A stretch of DNA of 32,000 bases from Geobacter metallireducens GS-15 (GCF_000012925.1 NC_007517.1:2400001-2432000); one strand, 5' to 3'; positions 10,650-32,000 are shown, counted from the stretch's first letter. Notes: generated by a model from the sequence alone, not told the origin. Numbers and translations: made by a program.

Positions 10650-10666
10650 TTGGTCCAGTATCTGCA
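10650..10666 (+). promoter_or_regulatory. candidate sigma-54 (-24/-12) promoter, TTGGTCCAGTATCTGCA
   Basis: GG at 10652-10653 and GC at 10664-10665 have the canonical 12-nt register of TGGCAC-N5-TTGCW. The -12 element ends 52 nt upstream of the ligase ATG (10719). A sigma-54-dependent activator is encoded 3 kb away. Confidence 0.45.
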
Positions 10667-10667
10667 A

Positions 10668-10681
10668 AACACTGTTTATCA
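10668..10681. promoter_or_regulatory. shared cis-element AACACTGTTTATCA (palindromic core AACA-C-TGTT)
   Basis: The 10-mer AACACTGTTT is identical to 17849-17858. The flanks also match except for one extra T (AACACTGTTTTATCA at 17849-17863). It lies immediately downstream of the candidate -12 element. Confidence 0.45.
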
Positions 10682-10718
10682 AATTAACACCTTAACCACA
10701 AGCTGCCGGAGGTCCACA

Positions 10719-12290: not shown

Positions 12291-12348
12291 ATCAGGGGCC
12301 TGATCGTCACGAACACACTCGATGCACTACCTGCCAAGGAGGTACGGG

Positions 12349-13635
12349 ATGGAGAAATACGCAGTCAGAAGAATGTTCAAGGGTCAACTGGCAACAGGTT
12401 TCGCCGCTCTGGCACTGAGTTTCATCGTCGCGGCTTTTCTGTGGCCTGCCTGGTCCCTCACGGTAAAGGCGCTGTACGGAATCCTCGCAGGCCCCGGCCT
12501 CAGCGCCGCGGAACCCAAGGAAGCCGGCCAGCTGATCGGTGCCGTGGCCAGGGGAACCTTCTTCTGGACGGCCATCAACAGCTGGATCTGGCTGACTCTG
12601 GTTATGGGGAATTACGGCAAGACCTCCTTGACCGAAAAACAGCCCTGGGCCGGCATCTACTATACCATCGTGGGGTGGCTGGTGGGGGCGGGAGCCTTTC
12701 TGGCGCTCATCAGCTTCATGGGGATCTGGTGGAAACCGTTCAGCCTGGCGATCATGTTCGTCCCCCGGACCGCCGCCGATGTAGCCATGGCCTTTGAGGC
12801 CTGGGAAGCATCCAACTTCTATGCCCTGGCGGTGATTATCGCCCAGATCCCGCTGGTTTCCCTGCTGCAGAAATGGCCCTTTGCCGGAAAGGCCGAAAAG
12901 CCCGTCGAGAGCTTCGGCGTGATTGCCATGGGGATCGCGGTGACCTTCATCGTCTGGATGGCGATGATCGTTCCGAGCTGGATGAAGCTTTCCCTGGGCG
13001 GAGAGCAGATCGTCGCCCCACCCTTCGGCAACTGGCCGGCATTCGCCGCATTCTGCCAGGCGTACGTTATCTTTGCCATCATGCCGGTGGAAGGGGGAGA
13101 GCTTTACCCCATGAAGCTGTTCACCCGGAAGCAGCCGCTGATGGGGATTATCGGCTTTGCCATCGCGCTTGCCGCCGGCTTTGTCATGCCGCCGATCATA
13201 AAGGGGATCATCGCCCCCCTCAATCTGGTAAGCGGCCCGCCCCTGGATGCGGTGGCGGCATCCCTGGAGCTGTCGGTGATCGTCTTCATGCTGGCCTGGC
13301 ACCACCTGTTCGAGGATTACCCGAGCGCCGCGCTGGTTCCCAATACCGCCGCCAGGGTATGCTGCAGGATAGCGATATGGTCCATCGGCGGCACGGTCTA
13401 TGGGGTCATCTGGCTGAAAACCTTCAAGCTGATCCCCTACGGCGCCAACGACCTCGGCATGGGCGTTCCGCCGCTGGGGATCCTGGCGGGGCAGTTCGCC
13501 CTGCTGATGACCCTCCTCTTCCTGAACACCTTTTTCGATAAATGGCCCCTGGTGCGCAAAGTGCCCCTGAGCGTACCCGAGGACATCCCCCTCCCCGCTG
13601 ACGAGCAGGCAGGGTTTGAAGCCATGGCCAAGTAG
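12349..13635 (+). CDS. polytopic integral membrane protein of unrecognised family (about 10-11 predicted TM helices)
   Basis: ORF 12322..13635. The ATG at 12349 lies 7 nt after AAGGAGG. The protein is Trp/Phe/Gly-rich with long hydrophobic stretches. It starts 58 nt after the ligase stop and is followed by an intrinsic terminator. Confidence 0.75.
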   Translation: MEKYAVRRMFKGQLATGFAALALSFIVAAFLWPAWSLTVKALYGILAGPGLSAAEPKEAGQLIGAVARGTFFWTAINSWIWLTLVMGNYGKTSLTEKQPWAGIYYTIVGWLVGAGAFLALISFMGIWWKPFSLAIMFVPRTAADVAMAFEAWEASNFYALAVIIAQIPLVSLLQKWPFAGKAEKPVESFGVIAMGIAVTFIVWMAMIVPSWMKLSLGGEQIVAPPFGNWPAFAAFCQAYVIFAIMPVEGGELYPMKLFTRKQPLMGIIGFAIALAAGFVMPPIIKGIIAPLNLVSGPPLDAVAASLELSVIVFMLAWHHLFEDYPSAALVPNTAARVCCRIAIWSIGGTVYGVIWLKTFKLIPYGANDLGMGVPPLGILAGQFALLMTLLFLNTFFDKWPLVRKVPLSVPEDIPLPADEQAGFEAMAK

Positions 13636-13658
13636 AAGAATGCATTGCTGTGTCATGG

Positions 13659-13697
13659 AGCCCTCGTATCCTTCCCGGGATAGGGGGCTTTTTTTTG
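13659..13697 (+). terminator. rho-independent terminator after the membrane protein gene
   Basis: Imperfect 12-bp stem (AGCCCTCGTATCC / GGATAGGGGGCT, with one G-U pair and one bulge), a 6-nt loop, then a run of 8 T. It lies between convergent genes. Confidence 0.7.
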
Positions 13698-13712
13698 TGA
13701 AACCGGAACAGG

Positions 13713-15053
13713 CTACGAATCTTCCAGACCATACTCCTTGATGCGGCGGTCGAGGGTCGGCCGGGAAATGCCGAGGATTTCCGCCGCCCTCTTCTTCTCG
13801 TTGTGGGTAAAGGCAAGGACATTCTGGATATGTTCCCGCTCGACCTCATGGAGCGGCCTGAGCACCAGGGGAAAGCTGTCGCTCTCGCTTTCCTCTTCCA
13901 GGTGCAGGGATTCGGGCGACAGCACCGAGCCGTGCGAAAGGAGGACGGCGCGCCGCAGCGTGTTCTCCAGCTCCCGGACGTTGCCCGCCCACGGATGGGC
14001 CAGGATGGCATTCATGGTCTCCTGGGGGATGATATCCACCCGCTTCCCGGTCTCATGGTGAAGCTTTTCCAGCAGGAATTTCACCAGGATGGGAATGTCG
14101 TCCCTGCGTTCCCTGAGGGGAGGGAGATCGATGGAGACCACTTTCAGGCGGTAGTACAGGTCGTGGCGGAAAATGCCGCTGTTGACCAGCGTGAGGAGAT
14201 TCTTGTTGGTGGCGGCCACAATGCGCACATCGGCCTTGATGGTCTCGATTCCCCCTACCCGCTCGAACTCCCGCTCCTGGATAAAGCGGAGCAGTTTCAC
14301 CTGCAACTCGGGACTGATCTCCGATATCTCATCAAGGAACAGGGTCCCCCCCTGGGCCAGCTCGAACTTCCCCGGTTTGGTTCGATACGCCCCGGTGAAC
14401 GCCCCCTTCTCATGGCCGAACAGCTCGCTTTCGAGGACCGTCGGCGAGAGGGCGGAGCAGGCCACGGCGATGAACGGACGGTTGCGGAACTTGCTGTTGA
14501 AATGGATGGCACGGGCAACCATTTCCTTGCCGGTGCCGCTCTCCCCCTGGATCAGGACCGTGGCCCGGAAGTCGGCAATGGCGCCGATGGTTTTGTAAAC
14601 CTCCTTCATGGCCCGGGAGCGGCCCACCATGATGTTCTGCTCAAAGGGGGCATCGATAGAGTCGCGGAAGGCGACGCCGGTCCGGGAAAGGGCACTCATC
14701 TCGAATATCTTGTCGATAATCTGGTCGAGCTGATCGAGATCGAGGGGCTTGCCCAGGTGGTCGATGGCCCCGAGGCGGATTGCCTCGATGGCGGTCTGCA
14801 TGTCGTCGTAGGCGGTGATCATGATAACCGGCAGGGCCGGCTTTCTTTCCTTGATCAGGGTCAGCACCTCGAAACCGTCCATGCCGGTCAGCCGCAGATC
14901 GAGGAGCACCAGGCCCACGTCCCGCGCCAGGGCCAGGTCGACCGCTTCGTTGCCGGTGGCAGCGGTGAGAACCGTATACCCCGTCTCGGCAAGGTGCAGC
15001 TCCAGGGTCCGACGGATGGCTCTGTCGTCATCGGCGACCAGGATTGTTCTCAT
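13713..15053 (-). CDS. bamW: sigma-54-dependent Fis family response regulator (NtrC type)
   Basis: REC domain (ILVADDD ... LLDLRLTGMDG). AAA+ domain with Walker A GESGTGKE, GAFTGA loop and Walker B LFLDEI. C-terminal Fis HTH (AAEILGISRPTLDRRIKEYGL). The symbol is from remembered synteny. Confidence 0.9.
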   Translation of the reverse strand: MRTILVADDDRAIRRTLELHLAETGYTVLTAATGNEAVDLALARDVGLVLLDLRLTGMDGFEVLTLIKERKPALPVIMITAYDDMQTAIEAIRLGAIDHLGKPLDLDQLDQIIDKIFEMSALSRTGVAFRDSIDAPFEQNIMVGRSRAMKEVYKTIGAIADFRATVLIQGESGTGKEMVARAIHFNSKFRNRPFIAVACSALSPTVLESELFGHEKGAFTGAYRTKPGKFELAQGGTLFLDEISEISPELQVKLLRFIQEREFERVGGIETIKADVRIVAATNKNLLTLVNSGIFRHDLYYRLKVVSIDLPPLRERRDDIPILVKFLLEKLHHETGKRVDIIPQETMNAILAHPWAGNVRELENTLRRAVLLSHGSVLSPESLHLEEESESDSFPLVLRPLHEVEREHIQNVLAFTHNEKKRAAEILGISRPTLDRRIKEYGLEDS

Positions 15054-16861
15054 TGCAGGCCATCCCCTTTCTCGGCGGGTCCCCCGAGGGGCAGAGTCAC
15101 GGTGAACGTGGCGCCCCGGCCGGGTTCGCTCTCGACGGATACCGATCCGCCATGGCGAAGGACAATCGTTTGCAGGATAGAGAGCCCCAAGCCGCCTCCG
15201 GACGCCTTGGTGGTGAAAAACGGCTCGAAGAGCTGTTCGAGCTTGTCGGGCGGAATCCCCCCCCCGGTATCGCTGACCCTGAGCAGCGCCATCCCGCTCA
15301 TACTCTGGGCGGTTATGGTGAGCAGCCGGGCATCGGGCGGCGTCCGGTTCATGGCATCGAGGGCATTGAGGACCAGGTTCAGCAGCACCTGATGAATCTG
15401 CTCGGGGTCGCAGACGAGGTTCAGGGGCGAATCGATACGGACTTCGGACCGAACCTGCTCTTCCTCCAGGCGCTGCGCCATGAGCTGCATCAGGCGGTCG
15501 ACAATCCCCTCCAGTTCCGCCGTCTCAAGGCGCAGGGGCCGCGAGCGGGCGAAATCCAGGACATCGTTCAGCAGGCGGTTGAGGCGCTGGATTTCCTCCT
15601 CCACGATGGAAAAGTTCTCCCTGAGCGTGCCAGCCGGAGCGATTTTTTTCCGGATCATCTGCATGTTCATCTGGATGGCCGAGAGGGGGTTGCGGATCTC
15701 ATGGGCCAGCCCCAGGGCCAGGTGCCCCACCGCGGCCACCTTCTTCGCCACCAGCAGCTCGTCGAAGGTGGATTCGAGCCGGGAATGGGCTTCACTGAGG
15801 GCTTTGGTGTGATGGTTGACCTGGCTGGAGAGGATCCGGTTCCAATTCATGAGAACCCCCATCAACAGGGTTGCCCCCGCCAGGACCGTCACCAGCAGAG
15901 TGGTGGCGAAGGCCTCCTGTCGATGCATGAACGTGGACAGGAGTTCGTCCACCTCCCGCTCGGGGGTTGAAATCCCCATTGCCCAGAGGCGGTTCTCGAT
16001 GCGGAACGGGTAGTAGCTCCCCAGCTTCCGCACCGGCTGATCGGGGATCTCGGCATCCAGGTAGTCGTACCAGCCGCTCCCCGGCTTCCCCTCTTCCACA
16101 GAGATGAGAAGGTTATAGAGGCGCGGCCACCGGGGAAGAAACGCCGCGTCGAAGCCGCGCCCCACAAGCCTGCCGCTCGGGGCGACGAGCATGGTCCTGC
16201 TGCTGATGTCGGCAAGCCAGGCGCGGCCATGGGTGCCGACGCGTATGGGAAGGATGTGCTTGTTCGCCAGCTTCTCGAAATCGAGGACACAACTGGCCAC
16301 CCCGAGGAACTCCCCCCGGGGTCCGTAGATCCCCTCGGCCACGATCAGGGCCTTGTACCCCCGGCGCTTTCCCCCCTCCATGCGGGTGAAGGGGGACAGG
16401 TACATCTCCCCGGGCTTCCCCTTTTCCTTGGCCCATTTTATATAGTCCCGCCAGGCATAGTTACGGCCAACGGTGTACGGATCGGCCGGCTCTATGGCGA
16501 CGGCGGTTCCACGGCTGTCAAAGATCACGAGGTCGACAACCGGGGTCGAGGCGAGGGAACCGTAGATCTTTTTCAGACGTTCGCCGACTTCCTCGGCCCT
16601 CCGGCGGGTGACCTCCTTCCCTTCGAAGAGCGTCACCACCAGATCGAGGTTGCGATGGAACGTGGCAAACATCTCCTCCAGGGTGTGGGAGGCCAGTTCG
16701 GCCATGAGGGACTGCTGCCGGTTGTACTGCTCGAAGAAGCGCTCCCGCGCCTCGGCGCGAACGGCGTTGGTGGTGTGCCTGATCCAGAGGAGAGCGCCGA
16801 CGGCCGTGGCGACCACCAGGACCAGAACGAGCAGCAGCTTGAGTTTGCGAAGATGAATCAT
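15050..16861 (-). CDS. bamV: sensor histidine kinase with periplasmic Cache-like sensor domain
   Basis: Two TM segments flank a ~280-aa extracytoplasmic domain. H-box HEIRNPLSAI, N-box LNLVLNALDAM, G1 DTGGGI, G2 GGLGLSI. Its stop overlaps the regulator start (ATGA at 15050-15053). Confidence 0.9.
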   Translation of the reverse strand: MIHLRKLKLLLVLVLVVATAVGALLWIRHTTNAVRAEARERFFEQYNRQQSLMAELASHTLEEMFATFHRNLDLVVTLFEGKEVTRRRAEEVGERLKKIYGSLASTPVVDLVIFDSRGTAVAIEPADPYTVGRNYAWRDYIKWAKEKGKPGEMYLSPFTRMEGGKRRGYKALIVAEGIYGPRGEFLGVASCVLDFEKLANKHILPIRVGTHGRAWLADISSRTMLVAPSGRLVGRGFDAAFLPRWPRLYNLLISVEEGKPGSGWYDYLDAEIPDQPVRKLGSYYPFRIENRLWAMGISTPEREVDELLSTFMHRQEAFATTLLVTVLAGATLLMGVLMNWNRILSSQVNHHTKALSEAHSRLESTFDELLVAKKVAAVGHLALGLAHEIRNPLSAIQMNMQMIRKKIAPAGTLRENFSIVEEEIQRLNRLLNDVLDFARSRPLRLETAELEGIVDRLMQLMAQRLEEEQVRSEVRIDSPLNLVCDPEQIHQVLLNLVLNALDAMNRTPPDARLLTITAQSMSGMALLRVSDTGGGIPPDKLEQLFEPFFTTKASGGGLGLSILQTIVLRHGGSVSVESEPGRGATFTVTLPLGGPAEKGDGLQ

Positions 16862-23465: not shown

Positions 23466-24242
23466 CTATCTCACTACTGCCGTTTTTTCTTTGAGGATGC
23501 CGAGGAGCTTGTCTGCCATTTCGTTCAGGTCCCCTTCCAGAACGATGCCGCCCCCTTTCCTGGCCGGGGGATAAACGCTGGCCGTGGCAGCCAGGGCCTC
23601 TTCCTTCAGGACGTCCACCCCCGGAATGGCCGCGATCTCCTTCTTCTTCGCCTTCATGATATTGGGAAGGGTCGGATAGCGAGGAACGTTGAGCCCCAGT
23701 TGGCAGGTGACCAGCGCCGGCGTCTTAAGCTTCACCACCCCCTTAAGGCCCCCTTCGAGCTCCCGCTTGGCGGTGACAACCCCGTCGGCAAAGGAGAAGC
23801 CGACCAAGGTGGTGGCACAGGAGTAGCCGAGTTGCTCGGCAACCGCCACCCCCACCTGGGCCGAGCCCCGGTCCTGGGACTGCATGCCGGTGAAAATCAG
23901 ATCAAAGCCCTTGTCCTTTGCGTAGGTGGCGATGATCGAGGCGATCTGCCAGGGATCCTTGAGGGAGACGGCCGGATCCTGGACATGCACGCCCCGGTCA
24001 CACCCCATGGCGAGAGCCTTTTTGAGTGCCTCCACCACCCTGTCGGGGCCGATCGAGAGCACGGTCACATCGGCGGCATCCCCCAACTGCTCCCTAAGCT
24101 GCACGGCCTGCTCGACGGCATACTCGTCGTACTCATTCATCCTGAAGGCCAGATCTGCTTCGTCATACCAGTTCCCCGAGCTGTTGGCCTTGAACCTCGA
24201 CTCCATGTCCGGAACCTGCTTGATACATACGAGTACTTTCAT
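23466..24242 (-). CDS. etfB: electron transfer flavoprotein beta subunit
   Basis: ORF 23466..24254 begins at a GTG. The ATG at 24242 follows GGAGG and gives MKVLVCIKQVPD, the canonical EtfB start. It ends 9 nt before etfA. Confidence 0.9.
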   Translation of the reverse strand: MKVLVCIKQVPDMESRFKANSSGNWYDEADLAFRMNEYDEYAVEQAVQLREQLGDAADVTVLSIGPDRVVEALKKALAMGCDRGVHVQDPAVSLKDPWQIASIIATYAKDKGFDLIFTGMQSQDRGSAQVGVAVAEQLGYSCATTLVGFSFADGVVTAKRELEGGLKGVVKLKTPALVTCQLGLNVPRYPTLPNIMKAKKKEIAAIPGVDVLKEEALAATASVYPPARKGGGIVLEGDLNEMADKLLGILKEKTAVVR

Positions 24243-24765
24243 AGAAACCTCCACGATCTTTACCCTTGTTCGATAACTTCAGCCCCGTTACTCCAACGCT
24301 ATCCGGTTCAACGGCGTCCCGCGAACCGTCTAATCTCTAATTTGGTATAAAAGTACTATTTTACTTTTTAACTGTCAAGCAAAAATTATTCAGGGTAAAT
24401 CGTTCGCAGAGATACCTCACCCCGGGTTGTCAATCACAGGTCCGGAAAAGCAATCAACAATAAAAACGGGAACTTGTCCCCCACGGGTGATTTTCCGGGG
24501 CGAAGCAAGCTCCCTCATTGATTGGCAGGATGGTTATAATCGGATCGTTTATTTCTATTTTGTCACATTATCCACCACTGGCTCCCGGAAGGGGCGGGGC
24601 TCTCGCGGAGAAGCGATCCCCGCAAAAAACCACCGCCGGCATGAACGGAGGGAAGGCCTCGGGAATAGCGGCTCACGTGCCACGAAGACCGACCAGTGAC
24701 GCTGGATCGCTTCGGAGCGAGAGTTTCGCCCCTTCCGTCGCCATGCGATGGCAAACGAATGATTT

Positions 24766-26313
24766 TTACATCATGCCGATGTCCCACACCCCCATCATCC
24801 CGATATCCTCATGCTCGACGATGTGGCAGTGGAACATGGTCATGCCGTCGTAGTCCTTGACCGGGACGAGGATGGTGGCGCTCCCCATCTTCGGGATGAT
24901 GACCACGTCCTTCCAGGCCGGTATGGTGGTGTAGAGCGAGGCATAGTCGGGATCGCCGCCGGTGACGGAAAGAACCTGGCACGAATTGACATGCTGGTGG
25001 AACGGGTGATCCATGCCGCTCTGGTTGACGATCTCCCAGACCTCGTAGGTGCCGAGGCCGGACGAAATCGTATAGGCGTGGTCCATGTCGGTGTACGAAA
25101 TGCCGTTGATGTACCCTCTCCCCATCATCATGCTGAGAGAGATCTGCCGCCGCGGCAGGAGGGAAAGGTTCATGTTCAGCCGTGCCGCCGCCGGATTCAC
25201 CGCCGTGGGGAGGGTGTCGCCCGCGGATATCCCGCCATAGGCGAGGGTCAGGAGCGTCACCTGCTGCAGGGAGCCGCCCCCCCGGGCGTAGGGGAGCGAC
25301 AGCAGCTTGAAGTTCCCGCCCCCCTGGTCCGCCTTGACCAGGACATCGACCCGCTCTCCCGGCGCCAGGAGGATGGTGGAAAGCTTATAGGGCTTGTCGA
25401 GGAGCCCACCGTCGGTCCCCACGAGCCAGAGGGAGTGCCTGTCGAGGGAAAGCTTCAGGAAGCGGGCATTGCAGGCGTTGACGATCTGCCACCGCTGCAC
25501 CTGCCCCGGCCGGATCGACAGGACCGGGTTCACCTGCCCGTTAACCATGACCAGGTTCCCCTCCTTCCCCCGCATGAAGTCGGAGTTGGAGGTGTACGGC
25601 TCGGGAAGGCCGTTGGCAATGGTGAGGTCCTTGATGAACATCACATGGGTCTCGTAGCCGGAAAGCGGGCTTCCCGCAGCATCGTCAATCACCAGAGGGC
25701 CGGCAAGCCCGCCCCAGTACTGCTCGGCAACGGAGCCGTGCACGTGGGGATGGTAGAAATTGAGGTGCCCTGGCTCTTCCAGGGCGAGATCGTATTCGTA
25801 ATTGAGCTCCGTGCCCGGCGCCGCCGTCATCATCATGTTGTCGCCCATCCCCGAGGGGGTGACGTGAAGACCATGGGTATGGATGTTGGTGATGTTGCGC
25901 ACATGACCGAGGATGTTGCTGGCGGTCGTTTTCGGCAGCATATTGACCATTCGCACCTTGAGCATATCGCCCCGGGCAGCCCGAATGACCGGGCCAGGAT
26001 ACATGCCGTTGTAAGTAAGAAGGGTCACCGCGGTGCCGTTCAGCCGCAGCCGTGCCTCCTTCACCAGAAGCTCGTAGGCCCCGGCGCTATTCTTCGTGGC
26101 ATTGGGAATATCGAAGAACGACGCTCCCGGCGGCGGATCGACAATCGTCGTAGTCGTCCCCCCCATGCCGCCGCCCCCCATGCCACCGCCGCCCATGCCG
26201 CCACTCCCCATCATGGCCCTGACCACGCCGGCGTGGAGAGTGGCGTAAACGCCCGCAACGCCCACCGATGCCGCAGTGATGAATTTCCTGCGGTTCATTC
26301 CTCTTTTTTTCAT
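24766..26313 (-). CDS. Tat-exported three-domain multicopper oxidase (CueO/CopA/laccase-like)
   Basis: ORF 24766..26403. The ATG at 26313 lies 7 nt after AAGGAGA. Twin-arginine signal MNRRKFITAA...VRA. Copper motifs HTHGLH, YHPHVHG, HPFHQHV, HCHIVEHEDIGMMG. Confidence 0.9.
   Translation of the reverse strand: MKKRGMNRRKFITAASVGVAGVYATLHAGVVRAMMGSGGMGGGGMGGGGMGGTTTTIVDPPPGASFFDIPNATKNSAGAYELLVKEARLRLNGTAVTLLTYNGMYPGPVIRAARGDMLKVRMVNMLPKTTASNILGHVRNITNIHTHGLHVTPSGMGDNMMMTAAPGTELNYEYDLALEEPGHLNFYHPHVHGSVAEQYWGGLAGPLVIDDAAGSPLSGYETHVMFIKDLTIANGLPEPYTSNSDFMRGKEGNLVMVNGQVNPVLSIRPGQVQRWQIVNACNARFLKLSLDRHSLWLVGTDGGLLDKPYKLSTILLAPGERVDVLVKADQGGGNFKLLSLPYARGGGSLQQVTLLTLAYGGISAGDTLPTAVNPAAARLNMNLSLLPRRQISLSMMMGRGYINGISYTDMDHAYTISSGLGTYEVWEIVNQSGMDHPFHQHVNSCQVLSVTGGDPDYASLYTTIPAWKDVVIIPKMGSATILVPVKDYDGMTMFHCHIVEHEDIGMMGVWDIGMM
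26158..26214 (-). repeat. in-frame tandem ~15-nt repeats encoding a Met/Gly-rich segment MMGSGGMGGGGMGGGGMGG
   Basis: The + strand reads ...CATGCCGCCGCCCCCCATGCCACCGCCGCCCATGCCGCCACTCCCCATCAT.... The segment lies directly after the predicted Tat signal cleavage site. Confidence 0.7.
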
Positions 26314-26365
26314 GATGAAATCTCCTTTCCCTGGAATTTCCGTTGTTTTCGCGAACACCGTCGAG

Positions 26366-26396
26366 GTAACGAAAACCCGCCCCGAAGGGCGGGTTT
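26366..26396 (-). terminator. rho-independent terminator between the two multicopper oxidase genes
   Basis: On the - strand: AAACCCGCCC-UUCG-GGGCGGGUUU (perfect 10-bp stem with a UUCG tetraloop) running into UUUUCGUU. It lies 34 nt after the stop at 26431. Confidence 0.65.
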
Positions 26397-26430
26397 CGTG
26401 CATCGCGACACAGTACTTGTTCGTCTTGCT

Positions 26431-28557
26431 TTAGGGCTTGACGGGGATATACGGCCGCATCATCTCGTTGTCCTCGTGGTCGAGGATATGGCAATGCCAG
26501 ACGTAACCGGGGCCATCGGTGGCGTCGAAGGAGTAGCCGACGGAACCGCCGATCGGGTTGCCCTGGGGCGAGAAACGCACGGCGATCCGGGTAACCTCTC
26601 CCGGCATCATGACCACCGTATCCTTCCAGCCCTGCTCGTTCGGAGCTGCCGGCACGGGTGAGCCCTGAAGATAGGGGGTGACGAGCAGGTTGCCGCCTAT
26701 CACCTGGTTCTGCCCGCCGATGGAGAGGGTATCCGTGAGGACAGTGGCGTACGGGTTGGGAGGGCCGTCTCCCGGGCCTTTCCCTGCTGCGGTCAAAGCC
26801 GCCATCCAGTCCGACAGGTACTTGTTCGCCTGGTAGGGCTGACGGTTCATGATCTGGAACTGCACGAGGTGGAGGTGGATCGGGTGGGCATCGCCCGTCG
26901 TGTTGATGATCTCCCAGACCTCGGTTGAGCCCAGGGTGGGAAGTTCGGTGAGCCAGTAATCAACCAGCTGCGTGCTTCCGGCAACCGGGGTATTCGTGGT
27001 GCCCATCGTGCTCTCCATGATGCCGCTCCACTTGGTGTTGTTGAGGAGCACCTCCAGCGGCCCGCCTCCCCCTTCTATTTCCCTCAGCACCAGTTGCCGC
27101 CGCGTGGCAACGGTCACACCGGGGGCTGTGGTTCCCTTGGCGGTCGCCAGTTTCACCATGGGTGTTGTCCGGAGGACGCATTTATTGCCGCTCTTCTTGG
27201 AGGCTGCCGGGTCACAGGTTCCGTCAGTGTCGCCGGTGACTGTCGTCCCTACCCTGAACTGCATTATCTGGGCGGTGGTCTGCGGGTCAGCGGCCATGCC
27301 GCTCGGGAAGGGGGCCTTGGCATTGTTCGTGAGAGTAACGGTTTTCCCGGCAAAGGGGGTAAAATCGACGATGACATCGGCCCGCTCACCCGGTGCCAGC
27401 AGCAGGCGGCCAGGATAGACAATAGGGACCGGCGCGTCGAGTAACCCGCCATCGGTGCCGATCTGCCAGATGGGTGCGCTGCGCAGGACCCCATCAATGA
27501 AGGCCAGGTTATAGAAACGGGCGTTGGAGCCGTTGAGGAGACGGAGGCGATAGCGCCTCGGCTCAACGTTCTGATAGGGCCACGATTTCCCGTTCACCAC
27601 GATGACGTCGCCGAAAAATTCGGGAATCCAGAACGGATGAACCGTGGGGTTAGGTGGCGCGCCGTTCAGCCCGGACGGGAAGCCGTCGGGGAAGAGGAGT
27701 TGGCCGGCGGTGTCGAACTGCCGGTCCTGGATGAGGATCTCGGTCTCCTGGTCGCCGGCGGGAAGGCGGATCGGGTTATCCGCTCGGCCGGTATCGCGGT
27801 CGTCCCGAAGGAAGTAGAAGGCTGCCAGGCCGCCATAGACGTTGAGCCGGGTCGTGCCGAGGGCGTGGTCATGGAACCAGAGGGTTGTTGCTTCCTGGCC
27901 GTTCGGGTAGTTGTAGACCGCTCCGTTTGCCGGGGCTGGCGGCGCGCCTGCCGAGGTGTAGGTCCTGTAGGCCGGGCCACGCATCCCGTTCGGCGTGAAC
28001 CACTGCTCCGGTCCGCCGTCGAAGTCCGACTTGTCCTCGCCGCCATGGAGGTGAGCGACCGCCGGCACCGGACCGGTATAGGGGTCGAAACACCCGGCGG
28101 CCATGGGAGTAAACATGCACCTGAGCTTGAACGGATCGGCCCAGTGGATCGTCTGGTCCACCGTCAGATACTTCTGCAGCAGCGGCGGTGTCCCTCCCGG
28201 CCCTGCCAGGTTGTTCACATACGTCGCCGTGGCCGGGCTCCCCTTTGTCGCCTCAACGGTATATCCCGGCCAGAGGGGGCCGTTGCCGTTGATCTTGTAC
28301 CCCCAGACGGTCGTTGGGCCAAAGCCGCCCGACGCCGGGAGGACCTGCTGTTTGAATTCCTCGAAGGAAACCGTGTACCCCGACGTGGCCGGCACCCGTG
28401 ATCCCGCGAAGGTGGGAAGCGGATCCCGATACTTGGGGACATTCTTCCCCGGCAGCGCCGTCTGGGGGACAAGGAAGCTGGCGGAGGCGTTCCCGATGCC
28501 GAGCGCCAGGGTAATGCCGGCTGCAACTGCTCCTCTCCACAATGATCGTCCGTCCAT
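26431..28557 (-). CDS. large multicopper oxidase, CotA/bilirubin-oxidase-like
   Basis: ORF 26431..28671. The ATG at 28557 lies 6 nt after AAGGAG. Sec-type signal ...LALGIGNASA. Copper motifs HLHGGE, WFHDHALGTTRLNVYGGL, HPIHLHLV, WHCHILDHEDNEMM. About 708 aa. Confidence 0.85.
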   Translation of the reverse strand: MDGRSLWRGAVAAGITLALGIGNASASFLVPQTALPGKNVPKYRDPLPTFAGSRVPATSGYTVSFEEFKQQVLPASGGFGPTTVWGYKINGNGPLWPGYTVEATKGSPATATYVNNLAGPGGTPPLLQKYLTVDQTIHWADPFKLRCMFTPMAAGCFDPYTGPVPAVAHLHGGEDKSDFDGGPEQWFTPNGMRGPAYRTYTSAGAPPAPANGAVYNYPNGQEATTLWFHDHALGTTRLNVYGGLAAFYFLRDDRDTGRADNPIRLPAGDQETEILIQDRQFDTAGQLLFPDGFPSGLNGAPPNPTVHPFWIPEFFGDVIVVNGKSWPYQNVEPRRYRLRLLNGSNARFYNLAFIDGVLRSAPIWQIGTDGGLLDAPVPIVYPGRLLLAPGERADVIVDFTPFAGKTVTLTNNAKAPFPSGMAADPQTTAQIMQFRVGTTVTGDTDGTCDPAASKKSGNKCVLRTTPMVKLATAKGTTAPGVTVATRRQLVLREIEGGGGPLEVLLNNTKWSGIMESTMGTTNTPVAGSTQLVDYWLTELPTLGSTEVWEIINTTGDAHPIHLHLVQFQIMNRQPYQANKYLSDWMAALTAAGKGPGDGPPNPYATVLTDTLSIGGQNQVIGGNLLVTPYLQGSPVPAAPNEQGWKDTVVMMPGEVTRIAVRFSPQGNPIGGSVGYSFDATDGPGYVWHCHILDHEDNEMMRPYIPVKP

Positions 28558-28695
28558 GGTTGACTCCTTTTTCGCTGACAGTATGTGCCGCACTTCCATA
28601 AAATCCCCGTCCCTGGGGAGCCGGCAATTTTCTGCCGGTGCCGTCATGGCATTGATCATGGACGGTCTCATCTCGTATTCCGTTGCCGGGGCACC

Positions 28696-30327
28696 CTATT
28701 TGCCCCCGGGACCGTTATGGCAGTCGTAGCATCCCACCATATCCCCCTTGGCATAGACCTTCATCCCCGTACTGGTGGTCCGGAAGCTGCGCGCGGTAAA
28801 CGTTCGGGAGAGCCGGGTCCCGCGGTAGTCCTTGCCGTGGCAGACGGTGCACGCCTGCGAATCAGCCTTGGCCGCACTGCCATGGGTATCCACCCACGCC
28901 GCGCCAACGGTGTGAAGCCCATGGGGTCCGCCGGCAGCGCTCGGGGGGAATCCCTGGGGATGGCAGACGACACATTCCGCAATAGTTCCGGCATACCCCT
29001 GGAGGTTGATGCTCTGCACATTGTCGTTATCCTCCGAAGAGGGATATTCGGCATGGGTGGAACCGTGGCACGCCTCACACTGCATGGTTCCGTGGGTTGC
29101 GCCCACCTTGAAGAGCGCCTGGCCGGTCGAGAAAATGCTGGTCGTTTGCCGGAAGTTTCCGGATACGTCGAAGGCCGAGGTGTCGCGCACATACGTCCCG
29201 TCCGGGGCCTGGTAATGGCAGTACTGGCATTTGGGGAGATCGATCCAGCCGGCACGCCCTGCCCCCCCCACAACGTTCATGGAGCCATGGCAGCTCTGGC
29301 ATTCGAGGGCGGCAGAGCCGTCCGGATTTTTTGCGTTTCCCATGACGCCCCGCAGGCACTGGGTCGTGGAGCCGGGATGGCAGTAATAGCAGCCGGACCG
29401 GTCCATGGTCTGGCCGAGGGGCATCCCGGTAGCATCATCCATGGCTTTGACCGCATGCCACGAATGCATTGAGGTGGTGAGCTGCTTCACCCCCGCGACC
29501 CCTGTCGTTCCCAGGGCATTGGACGGGTGGCACCCCGCGCAGAGGATCGGGGTTCCGGCATCGGAGGTGGCCAGAAGCCCGGCGGGCAAATATCCTTTCT
29601 GTGCCAGGGCAGTTGCATACAGGGGGTTTGCGCCATTCTTGGTGTCATGGAGGAGCAGGATGTTTCGCCGCCAGTCCCTGACAGGATTGGGATCGAAGAC
29701 CCAGTCGGGCGAAGGCTGCGCCATGGGGTCGCCGATGCCGGAGGTGTGGCATTTGCTGCACGCCAGTTCATCGCTGACCGGCAGCACCGTATAGGTCGTG
29801 GCGAGGAGCACTCCGCGGCCGTCCCTGGCCTCAACCTTTACCATCGGGTAATAGTTGGGAGCGCCTGCATCATCATGGGGAAGGATCGGTATCCCGTCAG
29901 CCTTCCAGAATCCGGATGCCGGATCATAGGACATGGGCGCCGGAGCGGTTCCCGGCGTCCGATTGCCGGTCAGTCCGGTGTCCACCGGCAGGGTCACGCC
30001 AAACAGGCCGGACACCCACTGCCAGAAGTTCGTTTTCCCCTTGCTCGTGGAGTTAATGGAACCGCGCGTGTCGGCGGTCGCGGTGTAGGTTACGGTAACG
30101 CCTGCCGTCACCTGCTTGCCGGTTTGACGGTCGATCAACTGTGCATGGAGGTTGTTGTACGGGGGGAGAATCGCGAAGACCGAATAATCGTTGTCTATGC
30201 AATGCATCCCCAGATCGTTCCAGGCGATAAGGGAATATGCTGCCGGGGGATCGCCTGCCCCGTTTCCGCCACACCCCGCGCAGACCATGACCACCAGGAG
30301 AGCGGACAAATGCAGTTTTGTTTTCAT
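28696..30327 (-). CDS. multiheme c-type cytochrome lipoprotein (nine CXXCH motifs)
   Basis: ORF 28696..30456. The ATG at 30327 follows GGAGAG. Signal/lipobox MKTKLHLSALLVVMVCAGC. Heme motifs CSKCH, CAGCH, CYYCH, CQSCH, CQYCH, CEACH, CVVCH, CTVCH, CYDCH. The first ~190 mature residues carry no heme motif. Confidence 0.85.
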   Translation of the reverse strand: MKTKLHLSALLVVMVCAGCGGNGAGDPPAAYSLIAWNDLGMHCIDNDYSVFAILPPYNNLHAQLIDRQTGKQVTAGVTVTYTATADTRGSINSTSKGKTNFWQWVSGLFGVTLPVDTGLTGNRTPGTAPAPMSYDPASGFWKADGIPILPHDDAGAPNYYPMVKVEARDGRGVLLATTYTVLPVSDELACSKCHTSGIGDPMAQPSPDWVFDPNPVRDWRRNILLLHDTKNGANPLYATALAQKGYLPAGLLATSDAGTPILCAGCHPSNALGTTGVAGVKQLTTSMHSWHAVKAMDDATGMPLGQTMDRSGCYYCHPGSTTQCLRGVMGNAKNPDGSAALECQSCHGSMNVVGGAGRAGWIDLPKCQYCHYQAPDGTYVRDTSAFDVSGNFRQTTSIFSTGQALFKVGATHGTMQCEACHGSTHAEYPSSEDNDNVQSINLQGYAGTIAECVVCHPQGFPPSAAGGPHGLHTVGAAWVDTHGSAAKADSQACTVCHGKDYRGTRLSRTFTARSFRTTSTGMKVYAKGDMVGCYDCHNGPGGK

Positions 30328-30647
30328 GGGGTTCTCTCCTGGCAGCGCCTGGCGTGGCAAGATTGTGCTGGTATAGAGTCTATCGATAAATCGGGAATTG
30401 GCCTTGATGTAAATTGCTGAATATTTGTGAAATATTGCTATAGCGGGTTGCATCATTTTTTTGTATCAGCGCAATATTGACTCATTACACATAGTTGAAC
30501 TCGTTTTAATACAACTTTGATTCAGATCCAGATACTAAATTGACATTTCTAGTAAGCAATTATTTTTGTGTAATAAATCTGCAACACAAAGACAGTTGGA
30601 TTGTTTTTGGTATCAAAGAATTTTATGCATAGGATTTAGTTGTGGAT

Positions 30648-31400
30648 TCAACTAAGGCAGGAGCGTCTGAATGCAGATGGGGATATGCCAGTAATGCTCT
30701 TGAACTGTCGGGTGAATTCACTCGGATCATTGAACCCGAGCTTGTAGGCAACGGTCGAGATAGTGAGATCCGCTCTCCGGAGAAGGGTTTCCGCCTTGCT
30801 TATCTTTACCATATTCATGAACCGCATGGGGCTCACGCCGATATACTTTTTGAAGTTGCGGCAGAAGTGGAATTTACTGAGGTGGGCCGCGCGGGCCAGG
30901 TCGTCGAGATATAAGGCGCAGTCGTAATTGCTCTTGATGTGCATGACCGCACGGCCGATCGATTCGGGAAGGTCGTCGGGAAGGTTGATGGGATCGGAAT
31001 AGTGCCGCTTGAGGGGATCTCTGCGCTCCCGCTGCATCCGGCGAAGGGCGAGTATGGTTTCAACCGCATGCTGGAGCACATGCAGATCGACCGGCTTGCG
31101 GAAATACTCCCGGGCTCCTTTTCTGAATGCCTTGAGGACGATCTCCTCGGAGCTGGAATCGGTCAGAAAGATTACCGGCAGATCGTTGCGAAGTGCTTTG
31201 ATTTCTCCAAGGAGGGTTATCCCGCCATCGGCGTCGGTGCCGCTGTCGAGGATGACGATATCCGGATCACTGGGGCCAATTGCCGTGGAAAGCCCCGCCG
31301 CGGATACGAGCCGGATGCCCGCATTGCCGACTGCCAGCAAGTCATACAGATCGGAATGGCTCGGTTCGGCAACAACAACTATGGATTGGGCCAGTGACAT
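30648..31400 (-). CDS. response regulator with AraC-family HTH output domain
   Basis: Receiver domain (VVVAEPS ... DIVILDSG ... VIFLTDSS ... FRKP). C-terminal AraC HTH (AHLSKFHFCRNFKKYIGVSPMRF ... VAYKLGFNDPSEFTRQFK). Confidence 0.85.
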   Translation of the reverse strand: MSLAQSIVVVAEPSHSDLYDLLAVGNAGIRLVSAAGLSTAIGPSDPDIVILDSGTDADGGITLLGEIKALRNDLPVIFLTDSSSEEIVLKAFRKGAREYFRKPVDLHVLQHAVETILALRRMQRERRDPLKRHYSDPINLPDDLPESIGRAVMHIKSNYDCALYLDDLARAAHLSKFHFCRNFKKYIGVSPMRFMNMVKISKAETLLRRADLTISTVAYKLGFNDPSEFTRQFKSITGISPSAFRRSCLS

Positions 31401-31424: not shown

Positions 31425-32000
31425 TCAGATCAACTTGTTCTCGATGACGAAGCGGGTCAGTTCCGCGTTGTTTTTCATGTTCAGCTTGCGCAGGATGTGG
31501 GCCCGGTAGGTACTGACGGTCTTCACGCTCAGGGAAAGCTCGGTGGCGATCTTGCCGACCGTCTTGCCTGAGGCGATCATGCTCATCACCTGATACTCCC
31601 TGTTGGAGAGACTCTGGAGGAGATCCTGCTGGTTATGATCACTGAGACCGGATACCAGAGACTCCGCCAGGGCCGAGCTCACATATTTTTTCCCCATGGA
31701 AATCTTATGCAGGGCATCGAGCAGTTCATTGGAAGCGCTTCCCTTGTTCAGGTAGCCCGCTGCCCCCGATTTATACGCACGGAGCGCGTACTGCTCCTCG
31801 GGGTGCATGCTCATGACGAGGACCGGCAGTTTCGGTTTGATGCTTTTCATCTCCGTCAGGACATCGAGTCCGTTTCTGCCCGGCATGGTGATATCGAGGA
31901 TCACCATGTCGTAATCATTGGCCTGTATCTTGTTCAGCAACTCCTTGCCGTCGACCGCTTCGTCGACAACGCTCATGTCCACCGTGGTGCCAATAACCTG
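31425..32000 (-). CDS. NarL/LuxR family response regulator, N-terminus cut off by the window edge
   Basis: Receiver (DMVILDITMPGRNGLDVL, VLVMSMH, GAAGYLNK) plus LuxR HTH (LSNREYQVMSMIASGKTVGKIATELSLSVKTVSTYRAHILRKL). The reading frame stays open to position 32000. Confidence 0.85.
   Translation of the reverse strand, partial: QVIGTTVDMSVVDEAVDGKELLNKIQANDYDMVILDITMPGRNGLDVLTEMKSIKPKLPVLVMSMHPEEQYALRAYKSGAAGYLNKGSASNELLDALHKISMGKKYVSSALAESLVSGLSDHNQQDLLQSLSNREYQVMSMIASGKTVGKIATELSLSVKTVSTYRAHILRKLNMKNNAELTRFVIENKLI

What the first reader, a model, noticed from the sequence alone, without database searches (positions are those of the whole stretch)
24766..30327. Operon coupling a nine-heme lipoprotein cytochrome to two different multicopper oxidases
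Seen in the sequence: three same-strand genes. The first is a lipoprotein with nine CXXCH motifs and a ~190-aa heme-free N-terminal domain (AWNDLGMHCIDNDYSVFAILPPYNNLHAQL). The second is a ~708-aa CotA/bilirubin-oxidase-like MCO with a Sec-type signal. After an internal UUCG-loop terminator comes the third, a Tat-exported ~515-aa CueO/CopA-like MCO. All four copper-site motifs are intact in both MCOs. Established knowledge: Geobacter outer-surface multicopper proteins (OmpB/OmpC) are needed for Fe(III) oxide reduction, and MCOs elsewhere oxidise Mn(II), Fe(II), Cu(I) or phenolics using O2. Inference: the physical gene linkage suggests a periplasmic or outer-surface electron path between hemes and the copper centres. 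That could serve O2 detoxification fed by the cytochrome pool, or metal or phenol oxidation. I know of no characterised cytochrome-MCO-MCO module. The two different export routes (Sec and Tat) and the partial terminator suggest differential dosage of the two oxidases.
Basis: partly seen in the sequence, partly recalled or inferred. Interest (0 to 1): 0.7.

Follow-up and report, generated by a model that had tools for sequence, protein, structure and literature searches.

The report
Geobacter cytochrome and copper-oxidase gene cluster
Three neighbouring genes of Geobacter metallireducens (a nine-heme lipoprotein cytochrome and two copper oxidases) are as described, but the pairing is kept only in a small Geobacter subgroup and resembles already-described oxidase-plus-cytochrome clusters, so it is a plausible, unproven heme-to-copper link rather than a new kind of system.

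Summary
On the minus strand lie a 543-aa lipoprotein with nine CXXCH motifs, a 708-aa CotA-like multicopper oxidase (MCO-A) and a Tat-exported 515-aa CueO/Thermus-like oxidase (MCO-B). Each oxidase has all four copper motifs, and a strong conserved hairpin separates them. The window is G. metallireducens GS-15, genes Gmet_2156, 2155 and 2154, annotated but unstudied.

Among 80 genomes carrying the cytochrome family, only 3 have any MCO within 10 kb. Of 80 metagenomic MCO-A loci, none has this cytochrome, and 11 carry a CusA/CzcA-like metal-efflux pump gene beside the oxidase. More distant MCO-B orthologues stand alone.

Within one Geobacter subclade, however, cytochrome-MCO-B is a conserved, tightly spaced pair. 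MCO-A is a later insertion. In Geobacter sp. AOG1 a 7-heme paralogue with the same N-terminal domain replaces the 9-heme cytochrome in place. In G. argillaceus MCO-B has decayed while the cytochrome is intact. An AraC-type response regulator travels with the cytochrome, with MCO-A, or with both.

Best reading: a lineage-specific, co-regulated envelope module in which the cytochrome may feed electrons to the oxidases for O2 or Cu(I) detoxification. Electron transfer is unproven. The cytochrome family itself is widespread and uncharacterised, and is the more novel item.

The parts
28696..30327 (-). Nine-heme lipoprotein cytochrome c (Gmet_2156), 543 aa
   Evidence: ORF and 9 CXXCH motifs. Pfam MtrC/MtrF domain II/IV hit at residues 342-500 and cytochrome c7. 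93% identical to a G. hydrogenophilus protein. Locus tag from the PMC10989804 supplement.
29770..30240 (-). Heme-free N-terminal beta-sandwich domain (residues ~30-186) with near-invariant WNDLGMHC...ILPPYNNLHAQ
   Evidence: Alignments A1/A2. AlphaFold2 model with pLDDT >90 over this domain, all-beta. No Pfam or PDB match. 1213 clusters at 50% identity carry the domain, and 60 of 88 full-length representatives have exactly 9 CXXCH.
28604..28619 (-). Weak terminator-like hairpin (UCCCC-AGGGAC-GGGGA then UUUUAUGG) in the 138-bp cytochrome/MCO-A spacer
   Evidence: Consensus scan and sequence. A similar stem is present in the G. hydrogenophilus spacer.
26431..28557 (-). MCO-A: CotA/bilirubin-oxidase/PhsA-like multicopper oxidase (Gmet_2155), 708 aa, Sec-type signal
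   Evidence: Four copper motifs. Pfam Cu-oxidase_2/_3. NCBIfam PhsA 1e-70, below cutoff. PDB CotA 1e-76. An identical protein lies on a 3,997,420-bp contig.
26366..26396 (-). Intrinsic-terminator-like hairpin with UUCG loop between MCO-A and MCO-B
   Evidence: Free energy -24.9 kcal/mol, z-score -3.5. Stem conserved in G. hydrogenophilus with loop change. The same CCCGCCC-N4-GGGCGGG-UUU motif follows MCO-A in L082 and precedes MCO-B in L167. Single copy in the window.
24766..26313 (-). MCO-B: CueO/Thermus-MCO-like three-domain multicopper oxidase (Gmet_2154), 515 aa
   Evidence: Four copper motifs. Three Pfam Cu-oxidase domains. CueO model 1e-50, below cutoff. PDB 2XU9 2.5e-79.
26158..26313 (-). 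Tat signal (NRRKFITAA) and Met/Gly-rich stretch (MMGSGGMGGGGMGGGGMGG) of MCO-B
   Evidence: Sequence. Both features are conserved in all 10 orthologues compared.
24466..24484 (-). Terminator-like hairpin plus U-run downstream of MCO-B, the likely end of the transcription unit
   Evidence: Consensus scan. Conserved in G. hydrogenophilus.
30648..31400 (-). Response regulator with AraC-type HTH output (Gmet_2157), directly upstream of the cytochrome gene
   Evidence: NCBIfam/Pfam. Orthologues sit next to cyt9 alone (L002), next to cyt9 with MCO(s) (L081, L166), next to cyt7-MCO-A-CCP (L082) and next to MCO-A alone (L084, L128).
31425..32000 (-). NarL/LuxR-type response regulator (Gmet_2158), 5' end cut by the window edge. 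Its PAS/HisKA_3 kinase lies outside the window
   Evidence: NCBIfam. The same HK-RR-RR order occurs in L081, with the RR genes also present in L166, L173 and L006.

Best explanation
This is a lineage-specific, co-regulated envelope redox module of the G. metallireducens subclade.

- The conserved core is [PAS histidine kinase - NarL-type regulator - AraC-type response regulator] - LGMHC-domain multiheme lipoprotein cytochrome - Tat-exported CueO/Thermus-like oxidase (MCO-B).
- In G. metallireducens and G. hydrogenophilus, a CotA-like oxidase (MCO-A) with its own terminator hairpin has been inserted between the two.

Most likely mechanism (inferred, not shown):
- The outer-membrane-anchored nonaheme cytochrome takes electrons from the abundant periplasmic cytochrome pool.
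- It passes them to the type-1 copper of the oxidase(s), which reduce O2 to water. This gives an anaerobe a non-energy-conserving O2 sink in the envelope.
- In the L082 variant a di-heme CCP/MauG-family protein follows MCO-A, so peroxide may be handled too.
- Both oxidases, MCO-B especially, probably also keep the ordinary cuprous-oxidase role of their families.
For: Shown:
- Identical gene order in G. hydrogenophilus.
- cyt9-MCO-B without MCO-A in two further lineages (L166, L173/L174). The gap is 62 bp with no hairpin in L173.
- All cytochrome-linked MCO-Bs form one clade. The AOG1 copy is preceded by a 7-heme paralogue instead. That paralogue is 34-37% identical to cyt9, keeps the WNDLGMHC domain and has one CX4CH motif. 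Its MCO-B is nested beside a cyt9-linked copy, so this is an in-place paralogue swap.
- The same 7-heme paralogue precedes the 81%-identical MCO-A orthologue by 43 bp in L082, where a CCP/MauG gene follows MCO-A.
- AOG1 also has a 43%-identical MCO-A-like gene in the same cluster.
- The AraC-type response regulator accompanies the cytochrome, MCO-A, or both.
[quoted passage not shown] Gmet_2156 is 7.2x higher with M. barkeri (PMC10989804).

From established knowledge (my own, not checked here): bilirubin-oxidase/CotA-type MCOs can oxidise ferrocytochrome c, and bacterial di-heme peroxidases use c-type cytochromes as donors.
Against: - No experiment shows electron transfer between these proteins.
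- Outside the subclade the partners are apart. 77 of 80 cytochrome loci have no MCO within 10 kb. None of 80 MCO-A loci has an LGMHC cytochrome, and only 3 have any ORF with two or more CXXCH within 4 kb.
- MCO-B orthologues at 64-75% identity are solitary.
- Geobacteraceae loci L002 and L006 have cyt9 without an MCO.
- In G. argillaceus MCO-B is frameshifted and lacks domains 1-2 while the cytochrome is intact, so the cytochrome does not need the oxidase.
- Terminator-like hairpins separate all three genes, and their expression changes differ four- to five-fold.
- MCO-A relatives are next to CusA/CzcA-type pumps. That fits plain copper resistance.
- The cytochrome-linked lineages are close relatives (MCO-B at least 85% identical), so much of the 'conservation' may simply be recent common ancestry.
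Confidence: 0.42

Rival explanations
1. The genes are co-located but functionally independent. The two MCOs are ordinary periplasmic copper-homeostasis oxidases (Cu(I) to Cu(II), possibly also Fe(II) or phenolics). The nonaheme cytochrome is an outer-surface or periplasmic electron-transfer protein with its own job. They are neighbours because of shared ancestry in a narrow clade, and perhaps share a stress regulator.
For: - MCO-B has a Tat signal, a Met/Gly-rich stretch and Met-rich C-terminus. Its best models are CueO and the Thermus MCO.
- MCO-A homologues at 61-63% identity (L085, L086, L117) have CusB/CusA-like genes directly downstream. The L085 pump passes the CusA/CzcA family model (TIGR00914, 1040 bits against a cutoff of 701). 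Of the 80 metagenomic loci, 10 have a CusA-like hit (11 counting L085).
- MCO-A and MCO-B types co-occur without a cytochrome in L134, L163 and L123.
- The cytochrome family is almost never next to MCOs elsewhere. It survives MCO-B decay in G. argillaceus.
- Hairpins lie between the genes.
Against: - The in-place replacement of cyt9 by a 35%-identical paralogue upstream of orthologous MCO-B is hard to explain by inheritance alone. So is the same paralogue upstream of orthologous MCO-A in a different arrangement.
- The gap is only 43-62 bp in L082 and L173.
- The AraC-type regulator is shared.
- No CopA/CusF/CopZ-type copper genes are seen in the window around the cluster.
Confidence: 0.38
2. 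The module acts on metals outside the cell, like the proposed mofABC and ompB systems. The MCO(s) oxidise Fe(II) or Mn(II) with traces of O2 at the cell surface. The cytochrome either relays these electrons or respires the freshly made Fe(III)/Mn(III,IV), giving an indirect way to use O2.
For: - In other phyla, cytochrome family members carry Big_2 and other surface-type N-terminal extensions. They sit next to type II secretion genes GspE/F/G in about 8 of 80 loci.
- The family is common in Fe- and S-oxidisers.
- The OmpB homologue Gmet_2163 lies about 6 kb away.
- The AOG1 cluster has the order MCO - FKBP isomerase - unknown - cytochrome, reminiscent of mofA-mofB-mofC.
- JGI names some MCO-A relatives 'manganese oxidase'.
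Against: - MCO-A is only about 31% identical over a part of the local OmpB-like protein, and it lacks that protein's size and extra domains.
- No porin or secretion genes lie in the window cluster.
- The PMC10989804 annotation predicts Gmet_2156 to be periplasmic.
- The proposed cycle is speculative, and no metal-oxidase assay exists for these proteins.
Confidence: 0.12

Closest known systems
mofA-mofB-mofC of Leptothrix discophora and the ompB (GSU1394) cluster of G. sulfurreducens; three tandem MCO genes plus a mofC-like cytochrome in Sideroxydans lithotrophicus ES-1 (as reviewed in PMC5566968)
   Same: One or several multicopper oxidase genes are clustered with a c-type cytochrome gene in a metal-redox bacterium. 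A heme-copper electron link has been proposed for them from gene linkage only. The AOG1 variant even has an FKBP isomerase gene after the MCO, as in mofAB.
   Different: - The cytochrome here is a 9-heme lipoprotein with the LGMHC beta-sandwich domain, not a MofC-type cytochrome with a periplasmic binding domain.
- The MCOs are ordinary-sized CotA-like and CueO-like enzymes, not the >1000-aa OmpB/MofA type.
- No SCO1/SenC chaperone gene is in the cluster.
CueO (E. coli), Thermus thermophilus MCO (2XU9) and Campylobacter McoC (3ZX1): periplasmic cuprous oxidases
   Same: MCO-B has three cupredoxin domains, all four copper motifs, an axial Met, a Tat signal and Met-rich segments. It aligns full-length to 2XU9 at E 2.5e-79.
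   Different: - It scores 173 bits against the CueO equivalog cutoff of 525.
- The Met-rich stretch is N-terminal (MGGGGMGGGG) rather than the CueO helix over the T1 site.
- It is linked to a multiheme cytochrome in this subclade.
CotA laccase (1GSK), bilirubin oxidase and phenoxazinone synthase PhsA
   Same: MCO-A shares the fold and copper motifs. E-values are 1e-76 to CotA and 3e-48 to PhsA. The best NCBIfam model is PhsA.
   Different: - MCO-A is about 190 aa longer than CotA.
- It is far below the PhsA cutoff (238 against 950 bits).
- It has a Sec-type signal where several relatives have Tat signals.
- Relatives are frequently next to CusA/CzcA pumps.
MtrC/OmcA/MtrF outer-surface decaheme lipoprotein cytochromes
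   Same: It is a lipoprotein multiheme cytochrome combining a beta-domain with heme domains. Pfam PF22113 (MtrC/MtrF domains II/IV) matches at 54 bits, above the cutoff of 30. Family members elsewhere are next to type II secretion genes.
   Different: - It has nine hemes and a single N-terminal beta-sandwich, not two barrels and two pentaheme domains.
- There is no PDB sequence match and no Foldseek match at E <= 0.001.
- No MtrAB-type porin-cytochrome genes are adjacent.

Membership tests
Three-domain multicopper oxidase (both MCOs) | Four copper-ligand motifs HXH, HXH, HXXHXH and HCHXXXHXXXXM | tested here: met
   MCO-A has HLH, HDH, HPIHLH and HCHILDHEDNEM. MCO-B has HTH, HPH, HPFHQH and HCHIVEHEDIGM. 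All are invariant in the MCO-A alignment.
Three-domain multicopper oxidase (both MCOs) | Three cupredoxin domains recognised by Pfam (Cu-oxidase_3, Cu-oxidase, Cu-oxidase_2) | tested here: met
   MCO-B matches all three clearly. In MCO-A, Cu-oxidase_2 is clear, Cu-oxidase_3 is exactly at cutoff, and the middle domain is not detected by Pfam but aligns to CotA residues 28-342.
CueO (NCBIfam NF008205 equivalog) | Whole-protein score at or above the curated cutoff of 525 bits | tested here: not met
   MCO-B scores 172.9 bits and MCO-A 126.1 bits. Both are CueO-like, but neither is a CueO equivalog.
PhsA / CotA-type oxidase (NCBIfam NF045554) | Whole-protein score at or above the cutoff of 950 bits | tested here: not met
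   MCO-A scores 238.5 bits. The relationship to CotA is at fold and family level only.
Geobacter OmpB/OmpC outer-surface multicopper proteins | Large (>1000 aa) MCO-domain protein with extra adhesion-type domains, secreted by the OxpG type II system | tested here: not met
   MCO-A is 708 aa. It is 31% identical over 242 residues, and 26% over a second stretch, to the OmpB-like 1196-aa protein of the G. hydrogenophilus locus. The true OmpB homologue is Gmet_2163, a different gene. Secretion could not be tested.
MtrC/OmcA-type outer-surface cytochromes | Ten hemes in two pentaheme domains alternating with two beta-barrel domains | tested here: not met
   There are nine CXXCH motifs and one N-terminal beta-sandwich. 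Only a 159-residue PF22113 match was found. No PDB sequence or fold match was found.
Bacterial lipoprotein | Signal peptide ending in a lipobox [LVI][ASTVI][GAS]C | tested here: inconclusive
   The window has V-C-A-G|C, where position -3 is Cys and so atypical. The aligned cysteine in homologues follows L-A-G, L-A-A or A-S-G. No dedicated predictor was available.
Tat-exported protein (MCO-B) | Twin-arginine motif [ST]RRxF[LI]K followed by a hydrophobic stretch | tested here: met
   NRRKFITAASVGVAGVYA is present, and the motif is conserved in all 10 orthologues.
Intrinsic terminator (26366-26396) | GC-rich stem-loop followed directly by a U-run | tested here: met
   An 8-bp GC-rich stem, a UUCG loop, then UUUCGUU. 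Free energy -24.9 kcal/mol, z-score -3.5. Conserved in G. hydrogenophilus. The U-run is short and interrupted, so efficiency is unknown. The consensus scan did not list it.
Operon (single transcription unit of the three genes) | Same strand, short gaps, no internal terminators or promoters, co-expression | tested here: inconclusive
   The genes share a strand. The gaps are 138 and 117 bp, and each holds a terminator-like hairpin. All three are up together in one comparison but by 12x, 6.6x and 2.6x. In another comparison only the cytochrome and its regulators change. Transcript ends were not available.
mofABC-type MCO/cytochrome cluster | MCO gene followed by an FKBP isomerase gene and a MofC-type cytochrome c gene | tested here: not met
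   No FKBP gene lies within the window cluster, and the cytochrome comes first. The AOG1 relative does have MCO-FKBP-unknown-cytochrome. Homology to MofC was not tested because no MofC sequence was held.

The most novel reading that the evidence does not exclude
LGMHC-domain nonaheme cytochromes form a large, uncharacterised family of secreted or surface electron-transfer proteins. The family occurs in more than 590 species genomes from Geobacter to Thiobacillus, Sulfuricurvum, Nitrospirota, Acidobacteriota and Planctomycetota. In one Geobacter subclade they have been recruited as dedicated electron donors to multicopper oxidases. That would create a soluble heme-to-copper O2 reductase in the envelope of an 'anaerobe', independent of membrane oxidases.
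Probability: 0.22. Interest if true: 0.7.

Novelty: new variant of a known kind. Interest (0 to 1): 0.45.

Why it matters
- **Oxygen tolerance.** If the cytochrome really feeds the oxidases, Geobacter would have a periplasmic O2- and Cu(I)-detoxifying sink wired to its cytochrome pool. That would help explain how these iron reducers tolerate oxic-anoxic interfaces.
- **Unexplained role of multicopper proteins.** It would also give a first tractable model for why multicopper proteins matter in Geobacter electron transfer. That requirement is still unexplained for OmpB/OmpC.
- **An unstudied cytochrome family.** Independently of the oxidases, the nonaheme cytochrome family is very widespread: about 50% identity across phyla, 1213 clusters at 50% identity. 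It is strongly conserved, has a domain with no Pfam, PDB or fold match, and has no studied member.
- **If the rival is right.** The cluster is then an ordinary copper-homeostasis pair next to an unrelated cytochrome.

Tried and rejected
- **Family-wide conserved linkage: rejected.** tblastn of both MCOs against 80 genome loci of the cytochrome family found MCOs in only 3. tblastn of cyt9 and cyt7 against 80 metagenome loci of MCO-A found none.
- **The conserved neighbour of the cytochrome family is a copper sensor: not supported.** The commonest neighbour is an OmpR-type two-component system closest to QseBC/PmrAB, not CusRS/CopRS.
- **Structural identification of the cytochrome: failed.** A PDB profile search gave one insignificant hit. 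Foldseek of a pLDDT-80 model gave nothing at E <= 0.001, only generic beta-sandwiches.
- **MCO-A is an OmpB/OmpC orthologue: rejected**.
- **The CCP/MauG neighbours are MbnH or MauG: undecided.** All NCBIfam scores are far below cutoff.
- **The hairpin is a repeated element: rejected for this window.** It is single-copy here, and Rfam finds nothing in 24000-31000.
- **Literature.** Searches for the locus tags found only one transcriptome paper. Searches for nonaheme or nine-heme cytochromes found nothing on this family.
- **Not possible with the tools.**
  - Measuring Cys43-Cys324 or heme-ligand geometry, because model coordinates are not exposed.

Full report
**What is there**

The region 24766-30327 holds three minus-strand genes.

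- **Cytochrome (28696-30327, 543 aa).**
  - It has a signal peptide ending in a lipobox-like cysteine. A heme-free N-terminal region of about 190 residues carries AWNDLGMHC...ILPPYNNLHAQ, and there are nine CXXCH motifs.
  - Pfam sees only an MtrC/MtrF domain II/IV-like stretch (residues 342-500) and cytochrome c7/c3-type matches. NCBIfam sees nothing.
- **MCO-A (26431-28557, 708 aa).**
  - It has a good ribosome-binding site, a Sec-type signal and all four copper motifs.
  - It is closest to CotA (1GSK, 1e-76), PhsA and bilirubin oxidase.
- **MCO-B (24766-26313, 515 aa).**
  - It has an RRKFITAA Tat motif, a Met/Gly-rich stretch, all four copper motifs and three Pfam cupredoxin domains.
  - It is closest to the Thermus MCO 2XU9 (2.5e-79), Campylobacter McoC and CueO.
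- **Hairpins.**
  - The UUCG-loop hairpin at 26366-26396 is real (-24.9 kcal/mol, z -3.5). It is conserved in G. hydrogenophilus, with a changed loop.
  - A weaker terminator-like hairpin lies between the cytochrome gene and MCO-A.

**Source organism**

Proteins identical to MCO-A and MCO-B sit on a 3,997,420-bp contig. From my own knowledge, that is the size of the G. metallireducens GS-15 chromosome.

The supplement of PMC10989804 lists, in the same order as the window:
- Gmet_2151: bamQ alcohol dehydrogenase
- Gmet_2155: multicopper oxidase
- Gmet_2157: AraC-type regulator
- Gmet_2158: LuxR-family regulator

. The genes are therefore annotated, but I found no study of them. The OmpB homologue is a different gene, Gmet_2163, about 6 kb beyond the window.

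**Is the linkage conserved? The cytochrome's view**

The cytochrome belongs to a very large and strongly conserved family:
- More than 4000 hits were found, at about 50% identity, across Geobacter, Nitrospirota, Thiobacillaceae/Hydrogenophilales, Campylobacterota, Acidobacteriota, Planctomycetota, Thermaceae and Xanthomonadales.
- The N-terminal domain alone finds 1213 clusters at 50% identity. Of 88 full-length representatives, 60 have exactly nine CXXCH motifs.

In the 80 best genome loci, an MCO lies within 10 kb in only three. One of those is a remnant in G. argillaceus. I estimate this to be about chance level; I did not compute it.

The commonest neighbours are instead an OmpR-type two-component system of QseBC/PmrAB type and, in about eight loci, type II secretion genes GspE/F/G.

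**Is the linkage conserved? The oxidases' view**

- **MCO-A.**
  - Of 80 metagenomic loci with MCO-A relatives (41-63% identity), none has an LGMHC cytochrome. Only three have any ORF with two or more CXXCH within 4 kb.
  - Eleven loci, counting L085, carry a CusA-like RND pump gene beside the oxidase. The L085 pump passes the curated CusA/CzcA cutoff. A few loci have an MCO-B-type gene or a CCP/MauG gene nearby.
- **MCO-B.** Orthologues at 64-75% identity stand alone.

Family-wide, the context of the oxidases points to copper or heavy-metal homeostasis, not to cytochromes.

**The Geobacter subclade**

Close relatives tell a different story.

| Locus | Arrangement |
|---|---|
| G. hydrogenophilus (L081) | Kinase - NarL RR - AraC RR - cyt9 - MCO-A - MCO-B, the same order as the window's regulator-to-MCO-B genes |
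| L166, L173/L174 | Regulators - cyt9 - MCO-B with no MCO-A; 62-bp gap and no hairpin in L173 |
| Geobacter sp. AOG1 (L167) | MCO-A-like (43% identical) - FKBP isomerase - unknown - cyt7 - MCO-B (83% identical) |
| L082 | AraC RR (divergent) - cyt7 - MCO-A (81% identical) - CCP/MauG; 43-bp gap between cyt7 and MCO-A |
| L084 | AraC - MCO-A - two CCP/MauG genes, no cytochrome |
| G. argillaceus (L001) | Intact cyt9 followed by an MCO-B wreck (Tat-signal ORF plus a domain-3 ORF in another frame; domains 1-2 lost) |
| L002, L006 | cyt9 with the regulators, no MCO |

The 7-heme cytochrome (cyt7) is 34-37% identical to cyt9. It has the same WNDLGMHC domain and one CX4CH motif.

A distance tree puts all cytochrome-linked MCO-Bs in one clade. 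The cyt7-linked copy is nested next to a cyt9-linked one, and the solitary MCO-Bs fall outside.

The simplest history has four steps:
1. One juxtaposition of an LGMHC cytochrome and MCO-B.
2. Later insertion of MCO-A, with its hairpin, in the G. metallireducens/G. hydrogenophilus line.
3. One in-place swap of cytochrome paralogues.
4. One loss of MCO-B.

**Weighing the evidence**

For functional coupling, or at least a common regulon:
- The paralogue swap.
- The recurrence of both cytochrome types with both oxidase types.
- The very short gaps.
- The AraC-type regulator that follows either partner.
- The CCP/MauG genes in two variants, which fit an oxygen or peroxide theme.
- The transcriptome. 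[quoted passage not shown] Gmet_2156 is 7.2x higher with M. barkeri.

Against:
- The narrow phylogenetic range, with MCO-B at least 85% identical among linked copies.
- The lack of linkage everywhere else.
- The decay of MCO-B beside an intact cytochrome.
- The hairpins between genes.
- The CusA/CzcA context of MCO-A relatives.
- A comparison in which Gmet_2156-2158 change without the MCOs.
- The largest expression change belongs to MCO-B, the gene downstream of the hairpin. That is not what a simple read-through attenuator would give.

I therefore rate a real cytochrome-to-oxidase module at about 0.4. Independent copper oxidases beside an unrelated cytochrome is only slightly less likely. An extracellular metal-oxidation role is a minor third option.

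**Comparison with what is known**

Clusters of MCO genes with c-type cytochrome genes have been described, and a heme-copper link has been proposed for them from linkage alone. Examples are mofABC in Leptothrix, the ompB cluster with a MofC-like cytochrome in G. sulfurreducens, and three tandem MCOs with a mofC-like cytochrome in Sideroxydans (PMC5566968). None has been characterised biochemically.

The present cluster differs in three ways:
- The cytochrome is an LGMHC nonaheme lipoprotein.
- The oxidases are ordinary-sized CotA-like and CueO-like enzymes.
- The regulators are different.

It is a new variant of a known kind.

The cytochrome family itself has no Pfam model for its N-terminal domain, no PDB relative by sequence or fold, and no literature that I could find. 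It is the more novel object.

**Limits**

- No localisation, activity or transcript-end data exist.
- The neighbourhood samples are the best 80 hits of capped searches, and many metagenome contigs are short. Only 43 of 80 had at least 1.5 kb upstream of MCO-A.
- Only two independent 7-heme paralogue loci were available.

Noticed in passing
window 28696-30327; loci L001-L080: The nonaheme cytochrome belongs to a very widespread, strongly conserved and apparently unstudied family. It shows about 50% identity across at least 8 phyla, and its N-terminal domain finds 1213 clusters at 50% identity. All nine CXXCH motifs are invariant, as are WN-LGMHC and a Cys in TQCLR. The family is enriched in sulfur and iron oxidisers such as Thiobacillus, Sulfuricurvum, Sulfurovum, Sulfurimonas and Sideroxydans. 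Betaproteobacterial members carry Big_2-type N-terminal extensions.
   Followed up: partly
L013 9395-14966; also L012, L014, L016, L033, L041-L043: In several Betaproteobacteria and Campylobacterota the cytochrome gene is directly followed by type II secretion genes (GspG pseudopilin, GspF, GspE). This suggests a dedicated secretion route to the cell surface.
   Followed up: partly
L021 7231-9284, L031 6943-9305, L013 7177-9263 and about 45 of 80 loci: An OmpR-type response regulator (closest to QseB/PmrA) lies about 75 bp upstream and divergent, with a QseC/PmrB-like kinase. This is the commonest neighbour of the cytochrome family outside Geobacter. Its signal is unknown.
   Followed up: partly
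L082 4621-5958; L167 6532-7866: A 7-heme paralogue (444-445 aa) has the same WNDLGMHC domain, six CXXCH motifs and one CX4CH motif (CQTGLCH). In both loci where it was found it sits next to a multicopper oxidase.
   Followed up: partly
L001 11635-12440 (G. argillaceus): An MCO-B remnant follows an intact cytochrome gene. It consists of a Tat-signal/N-terminal ORF and a domain-3 ORF in another frame. Domains 1-2 are deleted and the original stop codon is lost.
   Followed up: yes
window 24556-24770: A ~210-bp insertion lies immediately after the MCO-B stop codon. It is absent from G. hydrogenophilus and folds into one long imperfect hairpin (-103.9 kcal/mol, z -5.6). It may be a small mobile or REP-like element.
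   Followed up: partly
window 24255-24420: About 120 bp upstream of etfB, including TTGACAGTTAAAAAGTAAAATAGTACTTTTATACC, are almost perfectly identical between G. metallireducens and G. hydrogenophilus. The flanking intergenic DNA has diverged. This is a likely promoter or regulatory region of the etf/bam genes.
   Followed up: no
L081 632-6356; L167 1060-6229: An OmpB-like 1196-aa FG-GAP/MCO-domain protein and an FKBP-domain protein lie about 6 kb upstream of the cluster in G. hydrogenophilus. The corresponding G. metallireducens gene is Gmet_2163. In Geobacter sp. AOG1 the order MCO - FKBP isomerase - unknown 623-aa protein - cytochrome recalls mofA-mofB-mofC.
   Followed up: partly
L085 4276-11477; L086, L117, L091, L105, L109, L110: MCO-A relatives are repeatedly followed by CusB/CusA-like RND efflux genes. 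The L085 pump passes the CusA/CzcA family cutoff, and in L085 an AraC-type HTH gene precedes the oxidase. This is a copper or heavy-metal resistance context for this CotA-like subfamily.
   Followed up: partly
window 10650-16861: The left part of the window carries an AMP-binding CoA ligase, a sigma-54 response regulator and a Cache-domain histidine kinase. They are consistent with the benzoate (bam) gene region of G. metallireducens and appear unrelated to the finding.
   Followed up: no
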